A stretch of DNA of 64,000 bases, from assembly GCA_041397765.1 (NCBI GenBank), contig JAWKWA010000008.1, forward strand, positions 94,726 to 158,725, in the 5' to 3' direction. The notes under the pieces were generated by a model. It made no database searches. It was given only the letters and a program-made list of their open reading frames with translations, and was not told the DNA's origin. The translations under genes and the position numbers were made by a program. This stretch comes from Hyphomicrobiaceae bacterium. Lineage in GTDB: Bacteria > Pseudomonadota > Alphaproteobacteria > Rhizobiales > Hyphomicrobiaceae. Positions 16,704-59,881 of the stretch are shown one piece after another (position 1 is the stretch's first letter; each line of letters starts with the position of its first letter).

Positions 16704-17010
16704 TCAAGGGGCGAGCCAGATCTCGACCTCTGTGCCGTTGGCCCTCAGGCGTCCCGTCTTCATGAAGCCGTGGCGCAGATAGAACTGCTCGGGACCATGC
16801 GCGCCGGGATTGCCGTCATGCCCGCGAAGGCGGGCACCCGGACCCAGCCGATCATGCGCGGCGACAAGGGCCTTCTGGATTCCCGCCTCCGCGGGAACGA
16901 CGGAGTGGCGGAGGTGAGCGGCAGAAGCTTCACTCGCCATCACCCGGCATCGTCCCGGGGTCAACCGCTCGGCGTCCCCTCGCGATCGTCCCAACCCGGC
17001 ATCGGACCGG
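16704..17010. repeat. cluster of REP-type hairpins between convergent ruvB and lepA, overlying a probable GNAT gene remnant
   Basis: Hairpins atgcccgc-gaag-gcgggcac (about 16817-16840) and ttcccgc-ctcc-gcgggaa (about 16880-16898), plus direct repeats acccggcatcg x2. The minus-strand ORF 16704..16994 ends ...FYLRHGFMKTGRLRANGTEVEIWLAP (GNAT-like C-terminus), but its upstream part is repeat-derived (VVPAEAGIQ...LRGHDGN). Confidence 0.5.
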
Positions 17011-18855: not shown

Positions 18856-18956
18856 GGCGCGGACTTCTAGCATTGCCCCATGCGCCGAGAAAGAGGCGTC
18901 GGAGACAAGGACGCGCCAATCGGCAGGCGTGCGCCCGCGGGCGGTCGGGCTGGGGC

Positions 18957-19700
18957 GACGAAGTCAGGAGGCGGTGGGTCGTCGCCGTCTCGGCGCAAGC
19001 GCGCTGAGCCGCGACAGCCGCCCGTGCCGTTCTGACGCTCGAACCCATCCACACCGTCATTCCCGCGAAGGCGGGAATCCAGGGCATCTTTCCGTCTTGC
19101 GTGAGGCGCGGTGTCTGGGTGCCCGCCTTCGCGGGCAGGACGGGGAATGGTTGAGGCCGGCGAGCGCCAGGCGGCTGCGCGGCCGGTGGCTGACGGGGCG
19201 AGGACGGCGTCGGCTGCGGCGACGAAGTCGGGAGGCGGTGGGTCGTCGCCGTCTCGGCGCAATCGCGCTGAGCCGCGACAGCCGCCCGTGCCGTTCTGAC
19301 GCTCGAACCCTTCCACACCGTCATTCCCGCGAAGGCGGGAATCCAGGGCATCTTTCCGTCTTGCGTGAGGCGCGGTGTCTGGGTGCCCGCCTTCGCGGGC
19401 AGGACGGGGAATGGTTGAGGCCGGCGAGCGCCAGGCGGCTGCGCGGCCGGTGGCTGACGGGGCGAGGACGGCGTCGGTTGCGGCGACGAAGTCAGGAGGC
19501 GGTGGGTCGTCGCCGTCTCGGCGCAAGCGCGCTGAGCCGCGACAGCCGCCCGTGCCGTTCTGACGCTCGAACCCATCCACACCGTCATTCCCGCGAAGGC
19601 GGGAATCCAGGACATCTTTCCGTCTTGCGTGAGGCGCTGATCCGGGATGGTTGAGGCCGGCGAGCGCCAGGCGGCTGCGCGGCCGGTGGCAGGAGGACGA
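18957..19700. repeat. 264-bp tandem repeat, about 2.8 copies, each unit carrying two REP hairpins
   Basis: Unit starts at 18957, 19221 and 19485 (period exactly 264 nt). It begins gacgaagtcaggaggcggtgggtcgtcgccgtctcggcgca and contains cattcccgcgaaggcgggaatccag and tgcccgccttcgcgggca. A partial degenerate 4th copy follows to about 19700. Its translation gives the repeated peptide in track ORFs 18806..19654 and 18867..19733. Confidence 0.85.
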
Positions 19701-19799
19701 AGATGGTTGAAGGCGGCGGCGAGCTGACGCCACAGGCAGGCTGCGCGGTGCTGAGGACGGATGCGACAGGGCGAGGACGGCGTCGGCCGGGCCGGTCGT

Positions 19800-21463: not shown

Positions 21464-23139
21464 ATGACCCCTCTCGCAACCCCGCTCGACCGGATCGCCT
21501 CCGACTACGACGTCGTCGTCGTCGGCTCGGGCTATGGCGGCGGCGTCACGGCTTCGCGCCTCGCCCGTGCCGGCAAGCGCGTCCTCGTTCTCGAGCGCGG
21601 GCGGGAATACCCGACCGGCAGCTTTCCCTCGAGGCTGACCGAGCTGCGCGCCGAGCTGATGGTGACCGGCGGCCGCTTCGGGGCGGGCTCGCGGCCGGGC
21701 CTCTACGACTTCCGCTTCGGCGAGCACATCCACGTGCTGACGGGCTGCGGCCTCGGCGGCGGCTCGCTCGTCAATGCCGGCGTCGCGCTCCGCCCGGACG
21801 CCCGCGTCTTCGCCGATCCTTCTGCCTTTCCCGCCGAGATCGCCGGCGACGGCCTCATCGAGGAGGGGTTTGCCCGCGCCGCCGCCTGGATCCGCCCGGC
21901 CCGCGATCCCGAGGCCGGCACCACGACCAAGCTCGCCGCCTTCGCCAAGGCCGGCGAGGCGACCATCGGCCGGCCCGATCCCGCTCCCGTTGCCGTCAGC
22001 TTCGCCGATACCGTCAATCCGGCCGGCATCGGCCAGCCGGCCTGCACCCGCTGCGGCGACTGCTGCGGCGGCTGCAATGTCGGCGCCAAGAACACCGTCG
22101 CTCTCAGCTACCTGCCCGACGCGGTCGCCCACGGCGCCGTCATCGCGACGGAGGCCCGTGTCACCCGCCTCGAGCGCATCGGCAGCCGCTGGCACGTGCA
22201 TGTCGAGCCATTCCCCGCCGATCCGAAGGCCGCCGGCAGTTCCTCGGGCCCCATGGCCGTCGCCGCCGACATCGTCGTGCTCGCAGCGGGCACGCTCGGC
22301 TCCACCGAGATCCTGCTCCGGTCGCGCGCCGCTGGCCTTCCCCTGTCGGCCCGCCTCGGCGAAGGCTTCTCGGCGAACGGTGACATCATCGCCTTCGGCT
22401 ACAACGGCCGCGAGCGGGTCAATGCCGTCGGCATCGGCCATCCCCCGAGGGACGGTCTCGATCCGGTCGGCGCCAGCGTCACCGGCCAGATCGAGGTCGC
22501 CGATCCGGCCGATCTCGATCTCGGCATGTGCGTCCAGGAAGGCGTGCTGCCCTCCGCGCTCGGGCCGCTTCTGCCGGTTTCTTCGTGCCGGGCGGCCGTC
22601 TGCTCGGCGCCGCCCATGCCCTCATCAAGGGCGTCTATGACGGCCCGCTCGCCCGCACGCATACCTTCTTCGTCGTCAGCCACGACCGCGCGCGCGGCCG
22701 CATCGTGCTGAAGGGCGACAGGGCCGCCGTCGAATGGCCGGACGTCAATGACGAGCCGGTCTTCGCCCGGGTCGACGCCGCGCTCGAGCGGCTCTGCCGG
22801 GCGACCGGGGCGGCCTATGTGAAGAGCCCCTTGTCGGAAACCCTGATGGGCCGCCGCCCGGCGACTGCCCATCCATTGGGCGGCGCCCGCATGGCCACCG
22901 CTGCCCAGGCCGGCGTCGTCGATCACAAGGGCCGCGTCTTCGCCGGCGAGACCGGCGCGGTGGTTCATCCCGGCCTCTATGTCAGTGACGGATCGGTGCT
23001 GCCGCGTTCGCTCGGCGTCAATCCGCTCTTCACCATCACCGCCCTCACCGAGCGCGCCATGATCCACCTTGCCGAGGACTACCAGCTCCGCTTCGACACG
23101 GGACCACGTCCGCGCCGAACGGAGGCCGCCCATGGCTGA
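21464..23139 (+). pseudogene. GMC-family FAD oxidoreductase (cholesterol oxidase / choline dehydrogenase-like) with a -1 frame shift near 22575
   Basis: N-terminal part (frame of track ORF 21170..22711 from ATG 21464): DYDVVVVGSGYGGGVTASRLARAGKRVLVLERG... C-terminal part (track ORF 22528..23139): ...HPLGGARMATAAQAGVVDHKGRVFAGETGAVVHPGLYVSDGSVLPRSLGVNPLFTITALTERA. The junction lies at ctgccggtttcttc (ttt run). Confidence 0.65.
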
Positions 23140-23441
23140 GCGCAAGGCATCGGCCATGCCTGGCGAGGCCATCGAGACCTTGCACACCGTGCGCGACTGG
23201 TTCCGCTACGCCGTCACGCGCCTGGGCGAGGCCGGCGTCGCCTTCGGCCACGGCACCACCAACGCGGTCGACGAGGCGGCCTATCTGATCCTCGCGACCC
23301 TGAAGCTGCCGATCGACCGTCTCGATCCGTTCCTCGACGCCCGTCTCCTCGAAGCCGAGCGCCGCGCCCTCGCCGAGGTCATCGCCGCCCGCATCGCCAC
23401 CCGCAAGCCCGCCGCCTATCTGACCGGCGAGGCCTATATCG
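23132..23441 (+). pseudogene. prmB: 5' remnant (about 103 codons) of ribosomal protein L3 glutamine methyltransferase PrmB, truncated
   Basis: MAERKAS...AIETLHTVRDWFRYAVTRLGEAGVAFGHGTTNAVDEAAYLILATLKLPIDRLDPFLDARLLEAERRALAEVIAARIATRKPAAYLTGEAYI matches the PrmB N-domain. Downstream, none of the three frames continues the methyltransferase fold; the ORF runs into low-complexity junk to 23596. Confidence 0.55.
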
Positions 23442-23698
23442 GACCACACGCTCAGCCTCCCACCAGGAGTCAGTCCCGGAGAAGGCGCCGGCTCCGCCGG
23501 TCCTCGCGCATGGCCCCGCTGGCGCGCCCGGGGGGAGTGGGCCATGCGCGAGGCCTCGGCTCCGGGAGTCAGCGCCACCCATGTCCCCTGGCCTGATCGC
23601 CACACCCCCTCGCCCCGATTGCGCGCCGGCCCGATCGACTGCCCAAGCCGGCGCCAGGTCCTGTTGCGCTCTGGGGCGCCCTCTCCCCACCATGGCCC

Positions 23699-24109
23699 AT
23701 GATCGTGACCCATACTGAGAACGCCGATGGCCAGCGCCGCGTCTATCTCGGCGGAAAGGCGAGCCTCGAATGCTGGATCGAGCCCAAGGCCGACGGCCGC
23801 ACTTGGACCTTCCACCTGGAAGAAGCCGTCACCGGCAACCGGCTCACCGAGGACGATCGTCGCATCTGGGTGATCCATACCCTGCTGGCGCTCGCCGAGG
23901 CCCTCGCGGTCTCCCCTCGGGATCTGAGCGCCGTGCCCTTCGAAGCCATCGCGGCGCTTCACGTCGCCGATCCCTTCGCCAGCCGCCGGGTCGCCACGCC
24001 ACGCCGGACACCGGTCGAGAACAGCTTCCGTGCAACGCGGCCGGATGTGCGCCGGCCGAGGGAAGACTTCCGGCACCGCGACGACGCGCGGCCACGCTCT
24101 CGCATGTGA
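23699..24109 (+). CDS. hypothetical protein (orphan)
   Basis: 136 aa. The N-terminal 90 aa have balanced composition (MIVTHTENADGQRRVYLGGKASLECWIEPKADGRTWTFHLEEAVTGNRLTEDDRRIWVIHTLLALAEALA...). The C-terminus is Arg-rich. No family recognised. Confidence 0.35.
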   Translation: MIVTHTENADGQRRVYLGGKASLECWIEPKADGRTWTFHLEEAVTGNRLTEDDRRIWVIHTLLALAEALAVSPRDLSAVPFEAIAALHVADPFASRRVATPRRTPVENSFRATRPDVRRPREDFRHRDDARPRSRM

Positions 24110-24146
24110 TACCGCCTCGCGAAACCTCTGACCTTCGCGAGGCGGT

Positions 24147-24247
24147 ATGCGCGCGCGGGGTTGGTGGGGCGGCCGCGCGCAAACAAAGGACAAACCGGCG
24201 CGCATCCAACGCGATCACGAGTCGAAACTCATGCGCGCCGGTATGAG
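24147..24247. repeat. about 100-nt structured repeat element, copy 1 (two conserved stem-loops); second copy at 51392..51498
   Basis: gcgcgcgg-N14-ccgcgcgc, then aaacaaagga, then accggcgcgcat-N31-atgcgcgccggt (12-bp perfect inverted repeat). About 90% identical to 51392..51498. Both copies lie between convergent genes. Confidence 0.6.
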
Positions 24248-24322: not shown

Positions 24323-24616
24323 TCAGCCCAGATCGCCCGCGACGATGATCAGGTCGCGGCCCGCCGATTTGATCGCGAACACCTTCGCCTCCGCATAGGC
24401 CGGATCGTCGTAGCAGGCCTTGGCCGCCTCGAGCGAGGGGAACTCCACGATGGTGACCCGGACGCCGGTGCGCGTCTCCTTCAGCACCGGCGAGATATTG
24501 GCCGGATTGACCTTTGCCTGATACTTCTCCGCGATCGGCTTCCACAGCCGGACATATTCGTTGCGTGCCGCCTCGTCGCCGATCGCATCTGCGACGATCA
24601 CCCAATAGCCCTTCAT
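24323..24616 (-). CDS. DUF1330 domain protein
   Basis: 97 aa. MKGYWVIVADAIGDEAARNEYVRLWKPIAEKY...VEFPSLEAAKACYDDPAYAEA is typical DUF1330. Confidence 0.8.
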   Translation of the reverse strand: MKGYWVIVADAIGDEAARNEYVRLWKPIAEKYQAKVNPANISPVLKETRTGVRVTIVEFPSLEAAKACYDDPAYAEAKVFAIKSAGRDLIIVAGDLG

Positions 24617-24668: not shown

Positions 24669-25814
24669 CTATTCGCCCCGCCCCTCGAAGAAGCTCGCCA
24701 CCTTGGCGAAGAACCCGGTCGATTCCGGGCTCGTGTCCTTGCCCGAGGCCTTCTCGAACTCCTCGAGCAGCTCGCGCTGGCGCCGGGTGAGGTTCTTCGG
24801 CGTCTCGACCTCGACCTGGATATACATGTCGCCCGTCGACTTCGAGCGCAGAACCGGCATGCCCTTGTTCTTCAGCCGGAATTGCTTGCCGGTCTCGGTG
24901 CCCTCGGGGATCTTCACCCGCGTCCGCCCGCCGTCGAGCGTCGGCACCTCGACCGATCCGCCGAGTGCCGCCGACACCATCGAGATCGGTACGCGGCAGA
25001 AGATATCGGCGCCGTCGCGCTGGAAGAACTCGTGCGGCCTGATCGACAGGAAGATGTAGAGATCGCCCGGGTGTCCGCCCCGCAGGCCCGCCTCGCCTTC
25101 GCCGGCGAGACGAATGCGCGTGCCGTCCTCGACGCCGGCCGGGATGTTCACCGACAGCGTCCGCTCCTTGGTGACGCGGCCGGTTCCCGAACAGACCCCG
25201 CAGGGATTGGTGATCACCTCGCCGCGGCCCTGGCACGTCGGACAGGTCCGCTCGATGGTGAAGAAGCCCTGGCTCGCCCGGACCTTGCCCTGGCCGTGGC
25301 AGGTCGAGCAGGTGCTCGGCTGGGTGCCGGCCTTGGCTCCCGTGCCGCTGCAGGCCTCGCATTGCACGCTGGTCGGCACGCGGATTTGCGCCGTCTTGCC
25401 CTCAAAGGCCTCGCCGAGGGTGATCTCCATATTGTAGCGCAGATCGTCGCCGCGCTCGCGCGCGCTCCGCCGGCCGCCCCCACCCCCGCCGCGCCGCCCG
25501 CCCATGGCGCCGAACAGGTCGTCGAAGATGTCGGACATCGACATCCCGAAATCGGGACCGAAGCCGCCGCCGCCACCGCCCATTCCGCCCTCGAAGGCGG
25601 CGTGACCGAACTGGTCGTAGGCCGCGCGCTTCTGGGCGTCGGACAGCGTCTGATAGGCCTCGTTCAGCTCCTTGAAGCGCGAATCGGCTTCGCTGTCGCC
25701 GGGATTGCGGTCCGGATGGTACTGCTTGGCGAGCTTGCGGAAGGCGTTCTTGATGTCCTGGTCGCTCGCCCCGCGCGAAAGCCCCAGCACCTCGTAATAG
25801 TCACGCTTGGCCAT
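24669..25814 (-). CDS. dnaJ: molecular chaperone DnaJ
   Basis: [37 protein letters not shown] (J domain), a G/F-rich region, and four CxxCxGxG zinc-finger repeats. Start at cat 25812-25814. Confidence 0.95.
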
Positions 25815-26114: not shown

Positions 26115-28022
<1,908 letters not shown>

Positions 28023-50310: not shown

Positions 50311-51303
50311 ATGCTTTCCAGCCTGACCTTCAGCGCCTTTTCCGGCAAGAAGCGCTTCGCCGACCTGTCCGAGAAGGAGATCCTGGCCCTCGCCATCACC
50401 TCCGAGGAAGAGGACAGCCAGATCTATCAGGCCTATGCCGCAAAGCTGCGCGCTGACTTTCCCGCCAGTGCCGCGGTGTTCGACGGCATGGCCGCCGAGG
50501 AGAACGAGCACCGCCGCTGGCTGATCGACCTCTACAAGAAGCGCTTCGGCGACTTCGTCATTCCGCTGCGCCGCGAGCATGTCGCCGATTACTTCACCCG
50601 CCGCCCGGTCTGGCTGGTCGAGAATCTCGGCGTCGAGCGCATCCGCGAGGAAGCCGCCGACATGGAGCGGCAGGCGCAGAAATTCTATTCCGCCGCCGCC
50701 GCCCGCGCCACCGACGCCGACACGCGCAAGCTGCTCGGCGACCTCGCCATCGCCGAGGCCGGCCACGAATTGTCCGCCGAGGGCCTCGCCGAGGAGCATC
50801 TGGGCAAGGAGGAGCGCGCCGAGGAGGACGAGCGGGCCCGCCGTCAGTTCATTCTGACCTGGGTGCAGCCCGGTCTCGCCGGCCTGATGGATGGCTCCGT
50901 CTCGACGCTCGCCCCGATCTTCGCCACCGCCTTCGCTACCCAGAACACCTGGACGACCCTGCTCGTCGGCCTGTCGGCCGCGGTCGGCGCCGGCATCTCC
51001 ATGGGCTTCACCGAGGCGGTCCACGACGACGGCAAGATCTCTGGTCGCGGCGCTCCCTGGAAGCGCGGCATCGCCTCGGGGGTGATGACGGCGATCGGCG
51101 GTCTCGGCCACGCCCTGCCCTACATGATCCCGCACTTCTGGACGGCGACGATCGTCGCGCTGGTGATCGTGTTCTTCGAGCTGTGGGCGATCGTGTGGAT
51201 CCAGAACCGCTATATGGAGACGCCGTTCCTGCGCGCCACGTTCCAGGTCGTGCTCGGCGGTGCCCTGGTGCTCGCGGCCGGCATTCTGATCGGCGGGGCC
51301 TAG
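50311..51303 (+). CDS. mbfA: membrane-bound ferritin-like / vacuolar-iron-transporter family protein (erythrin-VIT1 fusion, MbfA-like)
   Basis: N-terminal rubrerythrin/ferritin-like domain (EILALAITSEEEDSQIYQAYA...MAAEENEHRRWL...ERQAQKFYSAAAA...IAEAGHE) fused to a C-terminal VIT1/CCC1 membrane domain (LAGLMDGSVSTLAPIFATAFA...). Confidence 0.85.
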   Translation: MLSSLTFSAFSGKKRFADLSEKEILALAITSEEEDSQIYQAYAAKLRADFPASAAVFDGMAAEENEHRRWLIDLYKKRFGDFVIPLRREHVADYFTRRPVWLVENLGVERIREEAADMERQAQKFYSAAAARATDADTRKLLGDLAIAEAGHELSAEGLAEEHLGKEERAEEDERARRQFILTWVQPGLAGLMDGSVSTLAPIFATAFATQNTWTTLLVGLSAAVGAGISMGFTEAVHDDGKISGRGAPWKRGIASGVMTAIGGLGHALPYMIPHFWTATIVALVIVFFELWAIVWIQNRYMETPFLRATFQVVLGGALVLAAGILIGGA

Positions 51304-51391
51304 AGCCTGATCGGTCGAGATGCGCGCGTCCGCGCGCGCATCGAGAGCGTGAATCAGACTCTACAGAAAAGACAGCCTGACCGGTCGAGAT

Positions 51392-51498
51392 GTGCGCGTC
51401 CGCGCGCGGGGTTGGCGGGACGGCCGCGCGCAAACAAAGGAGATACCGGCGCGCATCCAACTGGATCACGAGTCGAAACCCATGCGCGCCGGTATGAC
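51392..51498. repeat. about 100-nt structured repeat element, copy 2, with a partial tandem duplication of its 5' part just upstream (51305-51345)
   Basis: gcgcgcgg-N14-ccgcgcgc ... accggcgcgcat-N31-atgcgcgccggt conserved with 24147..24247. The segment cctgaYcggtcgagatgYgcgcgtccgcgcgcg occurs at 51305 and again at 51375. Confidence 0.6.
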
Positions 51499-51528: not shown

Positions 51529-52659
51529 TCACGTCGCGCCGCCGAGCCAGACGATGTGATTGTCGAAGTGGAGGTCGGCGTGCGCCTCGGGCGGCGATAT
51601 GGTTGCGGCGTCGCCGTCGGGCATGGTCCGCCGCGTCACACCTGCCCCGCTCGTCAGCAGGATCTCGCGCGCCCGCCCCGTTCCCGTCAGCCCGCAGACA
51701 TCGGCGAGCTCGCTCGTGCCGAGGAACCGGCCGCTGGCGATGTCCCAATGCGCGACGAGACCGCCCTTGGGCGAGGAGGCACTGGCGAGCGTGCCCGAGC
51801 TGTCGACGGCGACGCTGCCGACATAGCCGCGCATGCGACGGGTGACCATGGCCGGGCAATCGAGCATGCGCGGCGCCGCGCCGACGCGGGTGATGCCGAC
51901 CAGCGGCGGATGCTCCGTCATCGCGCCGTGCCACTGGCAGCCGAACACCACGCTGTCCTCCGCCGCGACCGCCAGATGCCGTATCGACAGCAGCCGCCAG
52001 TCGGGCTTCAGCTCCTGCCTGTCGATCAGCGCGCCGCTCGCAAGGTCGATCGCCGTCAGGCTCGAGCGCATCTGCGACACGGCGATGTCGGTGCGACCAT
52101 TGGGATCCGTCTCGATGCCGCCATTGGCGACGATGAGGGTTCGCCCGTCCGACAGGAGCGCGATGTCGTGCGGCCCGGTGCCACCGGTCGGCATGCTCCC
52201 GATCGGCCGGTAGCCGCCGGTCGCATCGCGGATGCCGATGACGCCGGCGCCACCGGCGATGTCGTTCTCGCTCGACAGCATGAGCCGTCCGTCCGCCGTA
52301 TAGACGCCATGACCGAAGAAGTGGCGGTTCTCCTCGGCGCCGAGCTCGAGCGGGCCCGCGCGCCCGTCGAGATCGAAGCGGACCGCGAAGCGGCCCGGCC
52401 GGCGCGCGAACACCACCGCTTCCCGGCTGCCAGGGCGCACGGCGATGTCGTGGCAGCGCGCCGGCATCGCAATGGTGCGGGCGATGCCGAGATCGCCGCC
52501 GATCAGCCCGACCCCATAGCCACTGGCCTCGCCCGCGAAGGCCGAGGCGAACCGTGCCGGCTCGCTCGCCGCGGCGAGCGACGGCGCCGTGCGGACCGTC
52601 ATCAGGGCTGCCGCCGCGCCGATCAGCAGCTCGCGACGATCAATCGCCATCGCCGGCAT
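51529..52659 (-). CDS. DUF1513 domain protein (Tat-secreted beta-propeller-like)
   Basis: MPAMAIDRRELLIGAAAALM (Tat RR motif). 376 aa. Typical 4th member of the imelysin / DUF1111 cluster. Confidence 0.8.
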   Translation of the reverse strand: MPAMAIDRRELLIGAAAALMTVRTAPSLAAASEPARFASAFAGEASGYGVGLIGGDLGIARTIAMPARCHDIAVRPGSREAVVFARRPGRFAVRFDLDGRAGPLELGAEENRHFFGHGVYTADGRLMLSSENDIAGGAGVIGIRDATGGYRPIGSMPTGGTGPHDIALLSDGRTLIVANGGIETDPNGRTDIAVSQMRSSLTAIDLASGALIDRQELKPDWRLLSIRHLAVAAEDSVVFGCQWHGAMTEHPPLVGITRVGAAPRMLDCPAMVTRRMRGYVGSVAVDSSGTLASASSPKGGLVAHWDIASGRFLGTSELADVCGLTGTGRAREILLTSGAGVTRRTMPDGDAATISPPEAHADLHFDNHIVWLGGAT

Positions 52660-53746
52660 TGAACCCCACCGTGACGCCCGCCGCCTGCGTGATCAGCTCG
52701 GCGGCGAGTTGCTGGGCATTGCGAAGAGGAAAGCCCGCCGCGATGATGGCGCGCCGGCCTTCGCCCTTTCGCGCGGCGTCGAGATCGGTGCCGGCTCGCC
52801 GGACGGCTGCGGCTGCCGTCTCGATCTCCTCGCCGATCAGCCTCGCGATGCCATGATCGGCCGTCGTAACGCGCTTTTCGATGCCGCCGTCGCCATAGAG
52901 CGCGCCAAGCCCTTCGAGGCCTGCGACTATGTAAGGCAGCGTCAGACCCGCCGTCTCCAGGATGCCGGGTGTCGGCGCCTTGTCCACTGCCCTGAGGCCG
53001 ATGGGACCGGCAAGGCGCGAATCGCGGATCTGCTCGATGCCGTTGACGAAGGTCTGGGCGATACCGAGTGTCACCTCGTTCGCGTCGAGATAGGCCGGGT
53101 TGTCGGCCGAGGGCGTCCGCATCAGCCTCGCAAAGCCGCTCTCGTCGCGCCAGTCGCGATCGAGATCCCCGGCGATCCGGCGGATGTTGGCGGCGATGGC
53201 GGCGGCGAACCCGCAGCGGAATTGCGTCTCCTCCGCCGGCAGGCCGGCCGGTGCGGCAAAGAGCAGGATCTCGAGCGCGGGAAGGCCCTGCAACGCCACA
53301 CTCTTTCCATGGAGGCTGGCGGCATCGAGCACGCTCGGGGCTCTGGCGGCGAGTTCCTTCTCGACCTGCCGGCGCACGAGGCCCTTGGGGTCGGGATAGA
53401 GCAGCAGACGCTCGGGCCGCGCCGCCTCGTGGCTCGGCCCGAAGCGCACGATGTCGAGCGGGGCATAGGCGAGCGCTGCCGAGGAGAAAGCTGCGCGGGT
53501 TGTCGCGCCCAAACCGGCATCATCCGGCCGCGCGCATTGCGCCCTCGCGGCCTCGTCGAGCCCCATGGCGGCGGCGGCGAAGCGCGCCGTCGCCGGCCGC
53601 AGGAAACCCTCGAGGAAATCCTCGACAAGGCCGGCGTGATCGAATGGTGGCGCCGCTTCGGCGAAGGCGCGCAATGTCGTCGCGCTTCCGCCCGGCAAGA
53701 TGAGCGCGCCGGCGCCGAGCAACCGGAGGAGCCGTCTTCTGTTCAT
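52640..53746 (-). CDS. imelysin-like (peptidase_M75 family) protein
   Basis: Tat signal MNRRRLLRLLGAGALIL. Start taken at the second ATG (53746); a 21-bp duplication provides an alternative ATG at 53767. Imelysin-type four-helix-bundle sequence. Confidence 0.75.
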   Translation of the reverse strand: MNRRRLLRLLGAGALILPGGSATTLRAFAEAAPPFDHAGLVEDFLEGFLRPATARFAAAAMGLDEAARAQCARPDDAGLGATTRAAFSSAALAYAPLDIVRFGPSHEAARPERLLLYPDPKGLVRRQVEKELAARAPSVLDAASLHGKSVALQGLPALEILLFAAPAGLPAEETQFRCGFAAAIAANIRRIAGDLDRDWRDESGFARLMRTPSADNPAYLDANEVTLGIAQTFVNGIEQIRDSRLAGPIGLRAVDKAPTPGILETAGLTLPYIVAGLEGLGALYGDGGIEKRVTTADHGIARLIGEEIETAAAAVRRAGTDLDAARKGEGRRAIIAAGFPLRNAQQLAAELITQAAGVTVGFNAGDGD

Positions 53747-53763
53747 AGCGAGCTCACGAATGT

Positions 53764-55278
53764 TCATAGCGAGCTCACGAATTTGATGAGGGCCTCGCGC
53801 TCCGCCGCCGAAAGTGCGGCAAAGCCGTTGCGTGCCGCCTCCGCTTCTCCGCCGTGCCACAGGATGGCCTCGGTGAGGTTGCGCGCCCGGCCGTCGTGCA
53901 GGAACAGCGTGTGGCCGCTCACCGTCTGAGTGAGCCCGATGCCCCACAGCGGCGGCGTCCGCCATTCCCGCCCGTCCGCCAAGCCCTCGGGCCGGTTGTC
54001 GGCGAGCCCGTCACCCATGTCGTGCAGGAGCAGGTCCGTGTAGGGCCAGATCTTCTGATGCGACAGATGCGGCTCGCCCTCCGCCTCGCCCGTCACGAAA
54101 GAGGGATGGTGGCAGGCGGCGCAGCCGATCTCGTGAAAGAGCGTGCGCCCGGCGAGCACGGCGGGATCCTCGGCGTCGCGCCGCGGTGGCACCGCCAGAT
54201 TGCGCGAGTAGAAGGCGACGAGCGCAAGAAGGTCGTCGCCGATCTCGATCTCCGGCTTGCCCTTGATCGAGCCGTTCGGCGCCGAGAGGCAGAGCGGCTG
54301 GTTGTCCGTGCAGTCGCCGGCCGCGTGCGGCACCATGCTGCTGCCGATGCCGATATCGCCGGCGAAGGCGTCGGCGGCCTGCTGCGCGACCGTCGGATTG
54401 CCGGCCTTCCAGCCGAAGCGTCCGGGCTTCGCCGTGAGATCGGCGATCGACCAGACGAGATTGACGCGGCCCGAAATGCCGTCGCCATCGGCATCGTCGG
54501 GATCGGCATTGGCGAGGAGATCGGCGTCCGGGATCGCCTCGAGAAGACCAAGGCCGATCATCTGCGGCGCGACGCGTGGAGACAGCATCACGCCTTCATG
54601 CAGCGGACCATAGCCCGGATCGCCGACCGAATAGGTCGGTCGCCTGAGGCTGACGATGGTTCCATCCGCCAGTGCCGCCGGCACTTCCTCGTAGGCGATC
54701 AGCATCCGGCCCTCGACCGCGTGCCCCTGCACGGCAAAGCTCTGGAGCTGCCCGCCATAGACGGGGTCGGGCACCACATTGATGCGATGCTCGGCGAGGA
54801 GTGCCCTCTGTTTGTCGGTCTCGGGCGCGATCGACAGGCGCAGGAACATCGAGACCGCTTCCTCCGGACCGCTCGGCGGGTGACCGCGTCCGTCCTTCAG
54901 ATGGCAGCCCTGGCACGAGCGCGCATTGTAGAGGGGTCCGAGCCCGTCCGATGCCTTCGTCGAGGACGGCGACGACACCCAGAATTTGCGGAAGATGGCA
55001 TTCCCGACCTTGAAATCGAGCTCGCGCTCGAAAGGCAGATTGCCGGAGGAATCGGAGAAGGCATTGGCCGTATCCGTGCTCGCCCGCGACGTCGCGGCCC
55101 CGCCCGGCAGGGCCTCCGCGGGATCGAGCGGGGGGATGGCATCGGCCGACATCGCCGCGGCTGATGCCACAACCGGAACGCCGAAACCCGAATGGAGCGC
55201 GCCGGCCACCGCCGCGAGAGAGAGGACCGTGGCGACGACGGTCACGCCCGTCCGCCTGCGACGCGACATTGCAGCCAT
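53764..55278 (-). CDS. DUF1111 di-haem cytochrome c peroxidase-like 'thiol oxidoreductase'
   Basis: Two CxxCH haem motifs (CQGCH, CAACH) and a signal sequence. Approximate start MAAMSRRRRTGVTVVATVL. Confidence 0.85.
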   Translation of the reverse strand: MAAMSRRRRTGVTVVATVLSLAAVAGALHSGFGVPVVASAAAMSADAIPPLDPAEALPGGAATSRASTDTANAFSDSSGNLPFERELDFKVGNAIFRKFWVSSPSSTKASDGLGPLYNARSCQGCHLKDGRGHPPSGPEEAVSMFLRLSIAPETDKQRALLAEHRINVVPDPVYGGQLQSFAVQGHAVEGRMLIAYEEVPAALADGTIVSLRRPTYSVGDPGYGPLHEGVMLSPRVAPQMIGLGLLEAIPDADLLANADPDDADGDGISGRVNLVWSIADLTAKPGRFGWKAGNPTVAQQAADAFAGDIGIGSSMVPHAAGDCTDNQPLCLSAPNGSIKGKPEIEIGDDLLALVAFYSRNLAVPPRRDAEDPAVLAGRTLFHEIGCAACHHPSFVTGEAEGEPHLSHQKIWPYTDLLLHDMGDGLADNRPEGLADGREWRTPPLWGIGLTQTVSGHTLFLHDGRARNLTEAILWHGGEAEAARNGFAALSAAEREALIKFVSSL

Positions 55279-55313
55279 CCTCCGATCCTCCCTGCCCGCC
55301 ATGGCCTCGCCGG

Positions 55314-56594
55314 CTATTGCAGCACGGCCGCCGGATTGTCGAGGCTGTCGGAGCCCTCGAAGTCGATCGAGCTGAGCTCGAGCGCAGTCACGGCCCGCTC
55401 GATCTCCTTCGTCTGCCGCAACAGCGCCGTCACCGCCTGATCGACCGCCGCATTGCCCTCGGCATTGCCCTCGCCGATCATCTGGTCATAGGCCTCGAGC
55501 GATTTCGCACGATCGACGAGCGCCGTCATTCGCTCCATCGTCGCATCGAGCGCGGCGTTGACGCGGCCGTCGATCTCGGGAGCCTTCGCCTTCACGATGT
55601 CCGACGGGCTCGGTCCCTTCACCACGCTGCCATCGATGCGCGTATAGCTGCCGCGATAGATGTTGAGGATGCCGAGCGCGTCGTAATAGTGCGAATTGTG
55701 CGTGTTGTCGGAGAAGCAGTCGTGCTCCTCCTCGGGGTCGTGCACCAGCAGCCCGAGTTTCATGCGTTCGCCGGCGAGCTCGCCATAGGAGAGGCTGCCG
55801 AGCCCGGTGAAGATGGTCGCAAGTCCGGCATTGCCCTCGCCGACCGCCCTGCGCGCCGCTCCGCCGTCCGCCCAGTCCGCCGCCATGGTGCCGAGATCCT
55901 CGACGAGGAGGTCGGTCGCGACCTTCAGGTAGGCCGCCCGCCGGTCGCAGTGACCGTTGGTGCAGTTCGCCGTGTCGAAGTCGGTCGCCGGTCGCGCGCC
56001 AGCCCCCGGCCCCGTGCCGTTCAGGTCCTGCCCCCACAGCAGGAACTCGACGGCATGATAGCCGGTCGCGACATTGGCCTCGATGCCGCCGCCCTCCTGC
56101 AGCTTGTCGGCGAGCAGCTCCCGGGTGATGGTCGAGGCGTCGATCGTTTCCGCGCCGATGCGGATCGAGCGGTTGGCGACGACATTGGCGACATAGAGCG
56201 GGTTCTCGGCCGACTCGCTGCCATACTCGCCGGCGACATAGTCGATGAGGCCCTCATCGAGCGGCCAGGAATTGACGCGTCCCTCCCAGTCGTCAACGAC
56301 GCGATTGCCGAAGCGGAAAGCCTCGGTCTGCATATAGGGCACCCGCGCCGCCTTCCACGCCTCGCGGGCCGCCGCGAGATTGGTTTCGCTCGGCTCGGCG
56401 ATCAGCCGGTCGACGGCTGCCTGAAGCGTCTTTGCGGTGGCGAGGCTGTCGCCATAGGCTGCGGCCGCGATGTCGGCATAGGTCGCGAGCACGGCGCCGA
56501 CCTCCGGTTCCGCGGCGCGCGCGAGGTCGGCCGGACCGGCGAGGAGGCTGGCAGAGAGGAGAAGTGTCGGCAGGTGCCGCAATGTCGTCGGCAT
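55314..56594 (-). CDS. imelysin family protein (iron-regulated protein A-like)
   Basis: Signal peptide MPTTLRHLPTLLLSASLLAGPADLARA. ...LLWGQDLNG..., HxxE-like imelysin motifs. Start at cat 56592-56594 with RBS aaaggga. Confidence 0.85.
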   Translation of the reverse strand: MPTTLRHLPTLLLSASLLAGPADLARAAEPEVGAVLATYADIAAAAYGDSLATAKTLQAAVDRLIAEPSETNLAAAREAWKAARVPYMQTEAFRFGNRVVDDWEGRVNSWPLDEGLIDYVAGEYGSESAENPLYVANVVANRSIRIGAETIDASTITRELLADKLQEGGGIEANVATGYHAVEFLLWGQDLNGTGPGAGARPATDFDTANCTNGHCDRRAAYLKVATDLLVEDLGTMAADWADGGAARRAVGEGNAGLATIFTGLGSLSYGELAGERMKLGLLVHDPEEEHDCFSDNTHNSHYYDALGILNIYRGSYTRIDGSVVKGPSPSDIVKAKAPEIDGRVNAALDATMERMTALVDRAKSLEAYDQMIGEGNAEGNAAVDQAVTALLRQTKEIERAVTALELSSIDFEGSDSLDNPAAVLQ

Positions 56595-56685
56595 GAGGCA
56601 ATTCCCTTTCTTCATCATCTGTCGAGTGTCTTGGTGTCGGGAGCGCCAGCACACGGCCCGACCGCGCCGGCAGGCGTCGATCAGT

Positions 56686-57246
56686 TCAGGCGGCGATCGG
56701 TGCATGCACGGCGACCTTCTTCGGCAGCACCACGCCGAGCCGGTCGAGGCCGGCCGCGAACATGCTCGCCATGTCGATCACGGTGTCGGGCGCCGTCTCG
56801 ACGCCGAGGAGAACCGCCGCGCAGCGACGGGCGATGTCGCCGCGCTGATATTGCAGCGACCCGATCATCGCGATGGCGAGGCATTCGTCGCGGCAGTAGA
56901 GCCGGCAATTGGGCGGGAACACCTCGATCTGCCGCGCCCGGCAGTGCCAGAGCGTACGGCACCAGAAGCCGAGATCGCCGATCGCCTGGCGCGCGCCAGT
57001 AGCGCCGAGCTCGGCGCTGTAGCTCTCGAAGGCGATCTCCCAGGAGGCGATATCTCCGGTATGGTATCCTGCGAGCCAGCAGCGGAACCCCTCGCCGACC
57101 AGCCGGCCTTTGCCGTCGATCTCGTGGAAGGCGGCCATGCGGCAGCAGTCCGGCCGTCCGCAGCTTGCCGGGCAGCGTGCCGCCTTCGGGCCGGCCTCGG
57201 CTTTGCCCGCCGCCGGTCCCGCGGAAGTCGGGAGCCGTCGCCGCAT
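56686..57246 (-). CDS. YkgJ/UPF0153-family putative Fe-S / zinc-chelating domain protein
   Basis: CPASCGRPDCC (CxxxCxxxxCC) near the N-terminus when the ORF is started at ATG 57246. ...FRCWLAGYHTGD...FWCRTLWHCRARQIEVFPPNCRLYCRDEC. Confidence 0.5.
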   Translation of the reverse strand: MRRRLPTSAGPAAGKAEAGPKAARCPASCGRPDCCRMAAFHEIDGKGRLVGEGFRCWLAGYHTGDIASWEIAFESYSAELGATGARQAIGDLGFWCRTLWHCRARQIEVFPPNCRLYCRDECLAIAMIGSLQYQRGDIARRCAAVLLGVETAPDTVIDMASMFAAGLDRLGVVLPKKVAVHAPIAA

Positions 57247-59644: not shown

Positions 59645-59881
59645 CCTCACGGCCGATCCTGCCGCAGCGATTCATCGACAACGACAAAGGGGACGGCCAC
59701 CACCGTCCCCTTTGTCATGTTCGCCAACCGCTCATGCGCCCGCACGCGGCAATCGCAATACGACACCGCGTCATCCGGACGGGCGAGCCGCGCTCGCCCG
59801 TCCTTGCGCCGCGGTCTCGCGCCCTGGCACGACCGCCTGATGCATGAGCTCCGAAGAGCTCATGCAAGGAGACGACGGCGC

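What the first reader, a model, noticed from the sequence alone, without database searches (positions are those of the whole stretch)
24147..24247. About 100-nt two-hairpin repeat family (copy 1) located in convergent intergenic regions: candidate structured RNA / REP-class element
The segment 24147..24247 and 51392..51498 are about 90% identical. They conserve two stems exactly: the 8-bp stem gcgcgcgg/ccgcgcgc around a 14-nt G-rich loop, and the 12-bp perfect inverted repeat accggcgcgcat/atgcgcgccggt around a 31-nt loop (ccaacgcgatcacgagtcgaaactc). The aaacaaagga linker is also conserved.

Substitutions in copy 2 fall in loops or the linker, not in stems. That is the pattern expected for a structure under selection: an sRNA, a bidirectional terminator/insulator, or a MITE-like REP. 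Both copies sit between convergent gene ends.
Basis: seen in the sequence. Interest (0 to 1): 0.6.

Follow-up and report, generated by a model that had tools for sequence, protein, structure and literature searches.

The report
Two-copy hairpin repeat behind operons
A 97-base, two-hairpin DNA segment occurs twice in this uncultured soil-type bacterium, each time just behind the last gene of an operon, and is most likely an ordinary lineage-specific intergenic repeat that doubles as a transcription stop or RNA-end hairpin, not a new regulatory RNA.

Summary
24150-24246 and 51401-51497 are 97 nt long and 93% identical, with 7 substitutions. All 40 stem bases of an 8-bp and a 12-bp hairpin are identical (P about 0.02 by chance). 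One correction: the loop of the large hairpin is 25 nt, not 31.

These are the only two copies in the window. I found no relative in Rfam, GTDB representative genomes, JGI metagenomes, viral contigs, plasmids, phages, two protein libraries or 58 kb from the nearest relatives. The source is an NCBI Hyphomicrobiaceae MAG whose remaining sequence I could not reach, so the genome-wide copy number is unknown.

Stem covariation is zero, because no stem position varies. No promoter was found. The unit has no terminal inverted repeats and no consistent target duplication.

On the minus strand, the large hairpin is followed directly by UUUGUCCUUUGUUUG (copy 2: UAUCUCCUUUGUUUG). It lies 78 and 34 nt after the last genes of two minus-strand operons, dnaK-dnaJ-DUF1330 and imelysin-DHOR-imelysin-DUF1513.

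Best reading: a low-copy dispersed intergenic repeat of the REP/RIME class in the loose sense, probably serving as a one-directional terminator or 3'-end hairpin. Confidence is moderate, and interest is low.

The parts
24150..24246 (.). Copy 1 of the 97-nt repeat unit
   Evidence: 93% identical to 51401-51497.
24151..24180 (.). Copy 1, hairpin 1: 8-bp stem GCGCGCGG/CCGCGCGC. The 14-nt loop is G-rich on the plus strand and C-rich on the minus strand.
   Evidence: Inverted repeat I14. Fold of the minus strand.
24181..24193 (-). Copy 1 linker. It reads AAACAAAGGACAA on the plus strand. On the minus strand it is the U-rich tail UUGUCCUUUGUUU that directly follows hairpin 2.
   Evidence: Sequence. 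Relaxed terminator scan.
24194..24242 (-). Copy 1, hairpin 2: 12-bp perfect stem ACCGGCGCGCAT/ATGCGCGCCGGT with a 25-nt loop. The minus-strand RNA fold is -30.7 kcal/mol and includes an inner helix UUCGAC/GUUGGA.
51401..51497 (.). Copy 2 of the 97-nt repeat unit
51402..51431 (.). Copy 2, hairpin 1 (same 8-bp stem; two substitutions in the loop)
   Evidence: Inverted repeat I17. Substitutions listed.
51432..51442 (-). Copy 2 linker. On the minus strand the tail after hairpin 2 reads CUCCUUUGUUUG.
51443..51495 (-). Copy 2, hairpin 2: 14-bp perfect stem ATACCGGCGCGCAT/ATGCGCGCCGGTAT with a 25-nt loop. Minus-strand RNA fold -31.3 kcal/mol, z -3.9.
   Evidence: (I4).
24323..24616 (-). DUF1330 gene, the last gene of the minus-strand run dnaK (26115-28022), dnaJ (24669-25811), DUF1330. 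Its stop codon lies 78 nt upstream (in the minus sense) of hairpin 2 of copy 1.
   Evidence: Pfam. Third-position GC.
51529..52659 (-). DUF1513 gene, the last gene of the minus-strand cluster imelysin (55314-56705), DHOR (53764-55302), imelysin-like (52640-53965), DUF1513. Its stop codon lies 34 nt upstream (in the minus sense) of hairpin 2 of copy 2.
   Evidence: Pfam.
24109..24148 (+). A separate 15-bp perfect hairpin (ATACCGCCTCGCGAA/TTCGCGAGGCGGTAT) that starts at the last base of the stop codon (24107-24109) of the plus-strand ORF 23699-24109. It is not part of the repeat and abuts its left end.
   Evidence: Inverted repeat I2.
51312..51349 (+). A separate hairpin just after the rubrerythrin-VIT stop codon (51303). 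Its 5' half belongs to a 35-nt direct repeat (51304-51338 and 51374-51408) whose second copy runs into the left end of copy 2.
   Evidence: D1 and I3..

Best explanation
The element is a short dispersed intergenic DNA repeat: two GC-rich hairpins joined by an A/T-rich linker. It was copied as a discrete 97-101-bp block into two unrelated spacers between convergent genes in the chromosome of an uncultured Hyphomicrobiaceae bacterium. It is not a free-standing sRNA gene.

Its most likely molecular effect is on the minus-strand transcripts. There, the large hairpin (12-14 bp, about -30 kcal/mol) is followed directly by a U-rich tract. It is the first strong structure after the last gene of two minus-strand operons. 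It would therefore act as a one-directional intrinsic terminator and/or a 3'-end hairpin that protects the RNA from exonucleases.

**Shown:** the repeat, its sharp limits, the intact stems, the position and orientation relative to the genes, and the hairpin plus T-tract on the minus strand only.

**Inferred:** that the element is transcribed, that it terminates or stabilises transcripts, and how it was copied. The copying mechanism is unknown, and no transposase was seen.

Hairpin 1 has no assigned role.
For: - **Discrete repeat:** 97 nt at 93% identity, with no similarity in either flank.
- **Safe sites:** both insertions are in convergent spacers, where nothing is disrupted.
- **Same orientation toward the minus-strand operons:** hairpin 2 lies 78 and 34 nt after the DUF1330 and DUF1513 stop codons.
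- **Terminator-like on one strand:** a scan allowing loops of up to 30 nt picks hairpin 2 plus tail in both copies, on the minus strand only.
- **Stable fold:** the minus-strand folds are -30.7 and -31.3 kcal/mol, z -3.3 and -3.9.
- **Strand hint:** the inner helix UUCGAC/GUUGGA contains two G-U pairs, which would be C-A mismatches on the plus strand.
- **Own hairpins on the other side:** each plus-strand neighbour has a separate hairpin next to its stop codon.
- **Stem sparing:** no substitution in 40 stem nt, P = 0.02.
- **Fixed in the population:** the element is present at the same locus in three strain-level metagenome contigs.
- **Precedent:** genomes of the same order (rhizobia) carry dozens of intergenic repeats with conserved sequence and secondary structure and unknown function. 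These repeats confound sRNA predictions (PMC2573895).
Against: - Only two copies are known, so 'family' is unproven.
- A 25-nt loop is atypical for an intrinsic terminator, and the standard scan (loop 3-8 nt) reports nothing.
- If termination happens at the U-tract, hairpin 1 lies outside the transcript and its conservation is unexplained.
- There is no covariation and there are no transcript data.
- Orientation and convergent location would coincide by chance fairly often with n = 2.
- No mobilising enzyme was found among about 60 ORFs scanned.
Confidence: 0.45

Rival explanations
1. The element is a functionless young duplicate. A patch of about 100 bp was copied once between two spacers, for example by ectopic repair or gene conversion seeded on GCGCGC-rich palindromes. 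It has simply not had time to decay.
For: - Only two copies were found anywhere.
- At 93% identity no selection is needed to explain the similarity.
- Covariation is zero.
- The local sequence is full of ATGCGCGC/GCGCGCAT motifs that could seed template switching.
- There is a further 35-nt direct repeat at the left end of copy 2.
- There are signs of rearrangement beside copy 1: a truncated prmB and a gene order that differs in every relative fetched.
Against: - All 7 substitutions avoid the 40 stem bases (P = 0.02).
- The orientation toward the minus-strand operon ends is identical in both copies, with a hairpin plus U-tract.
- The element is retained in three other strains of the population.
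Confidence: 0.25
2. The element is a structured regulatory RNA. It would be either a pair of paralogous small RNAs or a 3'-UTR-derived sRNA cut from the minus-strand operon transcripts, with the hairpins under selection at the RNA level.
For: - The stems are spared by substitutions.
- Folds are more stable than shuffled sequences on both strands (z -2.4 to -3.9).
- On the minus strand the hairpin plus U-tail is the usual 3' end of an Hfq-type sRNA.
- A sub-threshold match to Caulobacter sRNA CC1840 shows the same two-hairpin layout (17.4 bits).
Against: - No Rfam family reaches its threshold. CC1840 scores 17 against a threshold of 50, at E 1.5 in a 116-nt search, and is absent for copy 2.
- No promoter-like site was found.
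- On the minus strand the conserved block begins only 2-3 nt before the hairpin, leaving no room for a shared promoter.
- On the plus strand there is no terminator.
- There is no homologue in any other genome or metagenome searched, and no covariation.
Confidence: 0.12
3. The element is a non-autonomous mobile element (MITE or REPIN-like), moved by a transposase encoded elsewhere in the genome, with many further copies outside the window.
For: - The unit has sharp limits, and both insertions are in 'safe' convergent spacers.
- Hairpin 2 is an inverted doublet with a spacer, which loosely matches the REPIN layout (PMC3337134).
- The genome does hold a genuine REP-like family elsewhere (16813, 19054-19608).
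Against: - The ends of the unit are not inverted repeats.
- There is no consistent target-site duplication: GGTATG flanks copy 1 only.
- The arms of hairpin 2 are not themselves hairpin-forming REPs.
- No Y1/HUH or other transposase was found among about 60 window ORFs.
- Contig breaks in the strain-level assemblies fall at the edge of the 21-nt run shared by the two known copies, so they need no further copies to explain them.
Confidence: 0.1
4. The two copies are direct repeats (attL/attR) bounding a 27-kb integrated element.
For: Two same-orientation repeats lie 27,251 bp apart.
Against: - The interior holds dnaK, dnaJ, nth, ada, dapB, folD and an AcrB efflux pump, with no integrase.
- GC content is flat at 64-71% across the window.
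Confidence: 0.01

Closest known systems
REP / BIME / REPIN elements (Enterobacteria, Pseudomonas)
   Same: Both are short GC-rich extragenic palindromes found in spacers at gene 3' ends, often between convergent genes. Both form hairpins in RNA or single-stranded DNA. REPs are known to be co-opted for transcription attenuation and mRNA 3'-end protection (PMC3337134; the rest is from general knowledge).
   Different: REP-type elements occur in tens to hundreds of copies and are associated with a RAYT transposase, and each REP is itself an imperfect palindrome. Here only two copies are seen, no RAYT was found in the window, the arms are not self-folding, and a second, unrelated hairpin is part of the unit.
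RIMEs, Sm-repeats and AB/C palindromes of rhizobia (Rhizobium-specific intergenic mosaic elements)
   Same: They occur in the same bacterial order (Hyphomicrobiales). They are intergenic repeats with conserved primary sequence and secondary structure, of unknown function, and are routinely mistaken for sRNA genes (PMC2573895 and PMC2245857). From memory of Osteras et al. 1995, which I could not read here: units of about 100 bp built from two large palindromes.
   Different: I detected no sequence similarity. blastn against 72,556 plasmids, a collection that should include rhizobial megaplasmids, gave only two short chance-level hits in other genera. RIMEs occur in about 20 or more copies. Their consensus was not available for a direct comparison.
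Rho-independent (intrinsic) terminators
   Same: A GC-rich stem is followed at once by a U-rich tract on the transcribed strand, a few tens of nt after a stop codon. The tail UUUGUC matches the tail of a canonical terminator in this window at 59685-59717.
   Different: The apical loop is 25 nt rather than 3-8 nt. The unit also carries a second hairpin after the U-tract. The same 97 nt serve two unrelated operons, which ordinary terminators do not.
Rfam RF01521, Caulobacter sRNA CC1840
   Same: The order of parts on the minus strand is the same: a hairpin with a loop of about 24 nt, a linker containing GUCCU, then a GC-rich hairpin.
   Different: The score is 17.4 bits against a gathering threshold of 50, at E 1.5 in a 116-nt search. 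Copy 2 gives no hit. The element is not a member.

Membership tests
REP / REPIN (RAYT-mobilised) | Tens to hundreds of copies per genome | tested here: inconclusive
   There are two copies in 64 kb. The rest of the 207,592-bp contig and the rest of the MAG could not be fetched.
REP / REPIN (RAYT-mobilised) | Two inverted REPs, each an imperfect palindrome, separated by a spacer and forming one long hairpin | tested here: not met
   Hairpin 2 is an inverted pair of 12-14-nt arms with a 25-nt spacer. However, the arms are not self-folding palindromes, and the unit contains a second, unrelated hairpin.
REP / REPIN (RAYT-mobilised) | A cognate RAYT (Y1/HUH transposase) gene flanked by the repeats | tested here: not met
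   No Y1_Tnp or other transposase domain was found in about 60 window ORFs. A gene elsewhere in the genome cannot be excluded.
MITE | Terminal inverted repeats at the two ends of the unit | tested here: not met
   The ends read CGCGCGCGGGG... and ...CCGGTATGA and are not complementary.
MITE | Target-site duplication flanking every copy | tested here: not met
   GGTATG occurs at both ends of copy 1 (D1), but copy 2 has no counterpart.
Intrinsic terminator | A GC-rich hairpin followed directly by a U-rich tract on the transcribed strand | tested here: met
   On the minus strand, both copies have a stem of 12 or 14 bp and the tails TTGTCCTTTGTTTG and CTCCTTTGTTTG. The 25-nt loop fails the standard scan.
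Intrinsic terminator | Lies downstream of the stop codon of a co-oriented gene or operon | tested here: met
   The hairpin lies 78 nt after DUF1330 and 34 nt after DUF1513.
Intrinsic terminator | Transcript 3' ends map to the U-tract | not testable with these tools
   No transcriptome data exist for this MAG.
Trans-acting sRNA gene | Its own promoter and its own terminator inside the conserved unit | tested here: not met
   No promoter-like site was found. The plus strand has no hairpin plus U-tract at the end of the unit. On the minus strand the unit starts 2-3 nt before the hairpin.
Trans-acting sRNA gene | Conservation across species with compensatory changes in the stems | tested here: not met
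   No homologue was found outside the source population. There are 0 compensatory changes, and 21 of 22 pairs are invariant.
Any Rfam 15 family | Score at or above the family's gathering threshold | tested here: not met
   There were 0 hits at gathering thresholds. The best sub-threshold hit on the unit is CC1840, at 17.4 bits against 50.
RIME (rhizobial intergenic mosaic element) | Sequence similarity to the RIME1/RIME2 consensus | not tested
   The consensus was not available because the original paper is not held. Indirectly, there was no hit to any rhizobial plasmid.

The most novel reading that the evidence does not exclude
The 97-nt unit could be a portable 3'-end module: a small element that spreads specifically to the ends of operons and brings a ready-made terminator or stabiliser hairpin. 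It might target existing GCGCGC-rich terminator palindromes. The 35-nt duplication of the rubrerythrin-VIT terminator half at the left end of copy 2 would then be an insertion scar. Alternatively, it could be a new lineage-specific 3'-UTR-derived sRNA family.
Probability: 0.1. Interest if true: 0.5.

Novelty: new member of a known kind. Interest (0 to 1): 0.18.

Why it matters
If the best reading is right, this is one more example of a small palindromic intergenic repeat reused as an operon-end signal in a poorly sampled alphaproteobacterial lineage. That helps annotation, because such repeats should not be called sRNA genes. It also helps MAG assembly, because contigs of the same population break at this element. 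It does not open a new question. It would matter more only if a genome-wide count showed an actively spreading element that delivers terminators.

Tried and rejected
**Searches that found nothing**
- Loop-anchored pattern ACNNGATCACGAGTCGAAAC against GTDB representative genomes and JGI metagenomes gave 6 and 8 hits. All match only the pattern itself, so they are chance.
- Three other patterns against viral contigs: none.
- blastn against plasmids and phages: only two short chance-level hits.
- A concatenated six-frame translation of both copies against 5.8 billion proteins, meant to catch spurious ORFs called over other copies: nothing at E <= 1.
- A profile of the open plus-frame translation against 1.84 billion representative proteins: one low-complexity chance hit.
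- Covariance model R1 over the whole window with filters off found only the two copies and their palindromic self-matches. It found nothing in 58 kb from the nearest relatives or in any other locus.

**Comparisons that could not be made**
- Orthologous-locus comparison failed. Gene order after dnaJ differs in every relative fetched (DnaJ 79-83% identical). The closest DUF1513 homologue is only 57% identical.
- The source contig is not in the gene-position index.

**Readings rejected**
- Protein coding: the 7 substitutions cause 6 amino-acid changes in the open frame.
- Hammerhead ribozyme: 13 bits, with the catalytic core absent.
- att sites of a genomic island.
- Contig ends of L001-L003 as evidence for extra copies: the breaks sit at the edge of the 21-nt run already shared by the two known copies.

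Full report
**The observation**

The two segments exist as described. A gap-free comparison gives 97 nt (24150-24246 against 51401-51497) at 93% identity. BLAST gives E 1e-30, and nhmmer gives 103 bits for each copy. Similarity stops abruptly on both sides.

Each copy holds two hairpins:
- An 8-bp stem GCGCGCGG/CCGCGCGC around a 14-nt loop.
- A 12-bp perfect stem ACCGGCGCGCAT/ATGCGCGCCGGT around a 25-nt loop. In copy 2 this stem is 14 bp. The loop is 25 nt, not 31.

The seven substitutions lie in loop 1 (24165, 24169), the linker (24191, 24193) and loop 2 (24211, 24212, 24229). None lies in the 40 stem bases. The hypergeometric probability is 0.021, or 0.037 if the adjacent pair counts as one event.

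Short patterns, BLAST, nhmmer and a covariance model run with filters off all find exactly two copies in the 64 kb. The other model hits are the palindromic stems matching themselves on the opposite strand.

**Where it lies**

The window is ordinary chromosome, 68.6% GC and flat in composition. It carries housekeeping and metabolic genes: ruvB, lepA, dnaK, dnaJ, nth, ada, dapB, folD, an AcrB pump and methylmalonyl-CoA mutase. No transposase or integrase was found among about 60 ORFs scanned.

Third-position GC and Pfam show that both copies sit between convergent genes:
- Copy 1 lies between a + ORF ending at 24109 and the - DUF1330 gene (24616..24323). DUF1330 follows dnaJ and dnaK on the minus strand.
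- Copy 2 lies between + rubrerythrin-VIT (ending at 51303) and - DUF1513 (52659..51529). DUF1513 is the last gene of an imelysin / di-haem oxidoreductase / imelysin / DUF1513 cluster.

Each plus-strand neighbour has its own hairpin next to its stop codon, at 24109-24148 and 51312-51349. Neither belongs to the repeat.

**Where it comes from, and the search for relatives**

DnaJ and DUF1513 are 100% identical to proteins MEZ5774778.1 and MEZ5774802.1. These belong to an NCBI 'Hyphomicrobiaceae bacterium' MAG, on a contig of 207,592 bp. That contig could not be fetched.

Three short ENA metagenome contigs carry the same locus at about 99.5% identity and contain the right-hand part of copy 1. One of them has a single loop SNP at 24211, which matches the state of copy 2. 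All three contigs end inside the element. However, two of them end exactly at the edge of the 21-nt run (24170-24190) shared by the two known copies. The breaks are therefore explained without invoking further copies.

Every search outside the window was empty:
- Rfam at gathering thresholds gave nothing. The sub-threshold hits on the unit itself are weak, with CC1840 at 17.4 bits against a threshold of 50 as the best.
- A loop-anchored pattern in GTDB representative genomes and JGI metagenomes returned only chance hits.
- Viral contigs and plasmids and phages gave nothing.
- A six-frame translation searched against 5.8 billion proteins gave nothing.
- A profile of the open frame against 1.84 billion representative proteins gave one low-complexity hit.
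- The covariance model found nothing in 58 kb around dnaJ in the five nearest relatives (DnaJ 79-83% identical).

Gene order after dnaJ differs in every relative fetched. The nearest DUF1513 homologue is only 57% identical. No orthologous spacer was therefore available for comparison.

**What the anatomy says**

No stem position varies, so there is no covariation: 21 of 22 pairs are invariant and there are no compensatory changes. The stem-sparing pattern (P about 0.02) is the only hint of constraint. It does not distinguish an RNA structure from a DNA palindrome, and with only seven changes it does not firmly exclude a young duplicate either.

A free-standing sRNA gene is poorly supported for four reasons:
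- No promoter-like site exists in either spacer.
- On the plus strand no hairpin is followed by a U-run.
- On the minus strand the conserved block begins only 2-3 nt before the large hairpin, which leaves no room for a shared promoter.
- The open plus-strand frame is not coding: 7 substitutions cause 6 amino-acid changes.

The element is not a MITE. The ends of the unit are not inverted repeats, and only copy 1 has a short flanking direct repeat, GGTATG. It is not an att pair, because the 27 kb between the copies is core genome.

One feature is strand-specific and common to both copies. On the minus strand the large hairpin is followed at once by UUUGUCCUUUGUUUG in copy 1 and UAUCUCCUUUGUUUG in copy 2.
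- The minus-strand folds are -30.7 and -31.3 kcal/mol, z -3.3 and -3.9.
- A terminator scan that allows large loops picks both copies, on the minus strand only.
- The same UUUGUC tail follows a canonical terminator elsewhere in the window, at 59685-59717.
- A predicted inner helix UUCGAC/GUUGGA shortens the loop. It has two G-U pairs that would be mismatches on the plus strand.
- This hairpin is the first strong structure 78 and 34 nt after the stops of DUF1330 and DUF1513.

**Explanation**

I therefore read the element as a low-copy, lineage-specific dispersed intergenic repeat whose large hairpin serves, or is tolerated, as a one-directional terminator or 3'-end protective hairpin for the two minus-strand operons (confidence 0.45).

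The steps from 'hairpin plus U-tract' to 'terminates' are inferred. The 25-nt loop is atypical, and the standard scan misses it. Hairpin 1, which lies beyond the U-tract, has no assigned role. The copying mechanism is unknown.

The rivals, with confidences, are:
- A functionless young duplicate (0.25).
- A regulatory RNA (0.12).
- A transposase-driven MITE or REPIN with more copies elsewhere (0.10).
- att repeats of an island (0.01).

**Comparison with known kinds**

In behaviour the element resembles REP/BIME/REPIN elements, which are extragenic palindromes in safe spacers, sometimes co-opted for attenuation (PMC3337134). It also resembles the RIMEs, Sm-repeats and AB/C palindromes of rhizobia. 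Those belong to the same order, have conserved sequence and structure, have unknown function, and are regularly mistaken for sRNAs (PMC2573895 and PMC2245857).

Membership in the REPIN family is not shown. Copy number is untestable here, no RAYT lies in the window, and the arms are not self-folding REPs. Similarity to the RIME consensus could not be tested because the original paper is not held. No rhizobial plasmid matched.

**Verdict**

This is a real but ordinary feature: a new member of a known kind. Interest is low (0.18). The most novel reading not excluded is a portable operon-end module or a new 3'-UTR sRNA family (probability about 0.1). The decisive test is a copy count in the complete MAG and 3'-end mapping of the two operons.

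Noticed in passing
window 18948-19739 (also 16813-16839): There are three tandem units of 264 nt (100%, 98% and 73% identity). Each holds an inverted pair of REP-like palindromes, CCGTCATTCCCGCGAAGGCGGGAATCC and GGGTGCCCGCCTTCGCGGGCAGGACGG, upstream of lepA. A solo variant lies in the ruvB/lepA spacer. This is a separate, REPIN-like repeat family, unrelated in sequence to the finding.
   Followed up: partly
window ~23132-23470 (+): This is the N-terminal part of a PrmB/PrmC-type methyltransferase (weak PrmC_N hit). It loses its frame after about 110 residues, and no NPPY motif exists in any frame. It is followed by an ORF of 136 aa with no known family (23699-24109). It looks like a truncated gene or a rearrangement scar just left of copy 1.
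   Followed up: partly
window 51304-51338 and 51374-51408: A 35-nt direct repeat (94% identical, 70 nt apart). The first copy is the 5' half of the hairpin right after the rubrerythrin-VIT stop codon. The second copy runs into the left end of element copy 2. It could be an insertion or repair scar. Unexplained.
   Followed up: partly
L002 position 569 = window 24211: In one strain-level metagenome contig, the copy-1 locus carries T at 24211. This is the base found in copy 2, and the site is one of the seven where the two copies differ. It could be shared polymorphism or gene conversion between the copies.
   Followed up: no
L019, L020-L022, L023, L024 (dnaJ loci of relatives): The gene order downstream of dnaK-dnaJ is different in every relative fetched: pyrF, acetyltransferase, an FMN reductase plus ParDE, or an MFS transporter. 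This side of the heat-shock operon appears to be a rearrangement hot spot in the lineage.
   Followed up: no
window 16795-16810: CATGCGCGCCGGGAT matches the 3' arm of hairpin 2 at 15 of 16 positions. It lies inside what looks like the 3' end of a minus-strand acetyltransferase-like ORF, next to the REP-like palindrome. BLAST E is about 1, so it is probably chance.
   Followed up: partly
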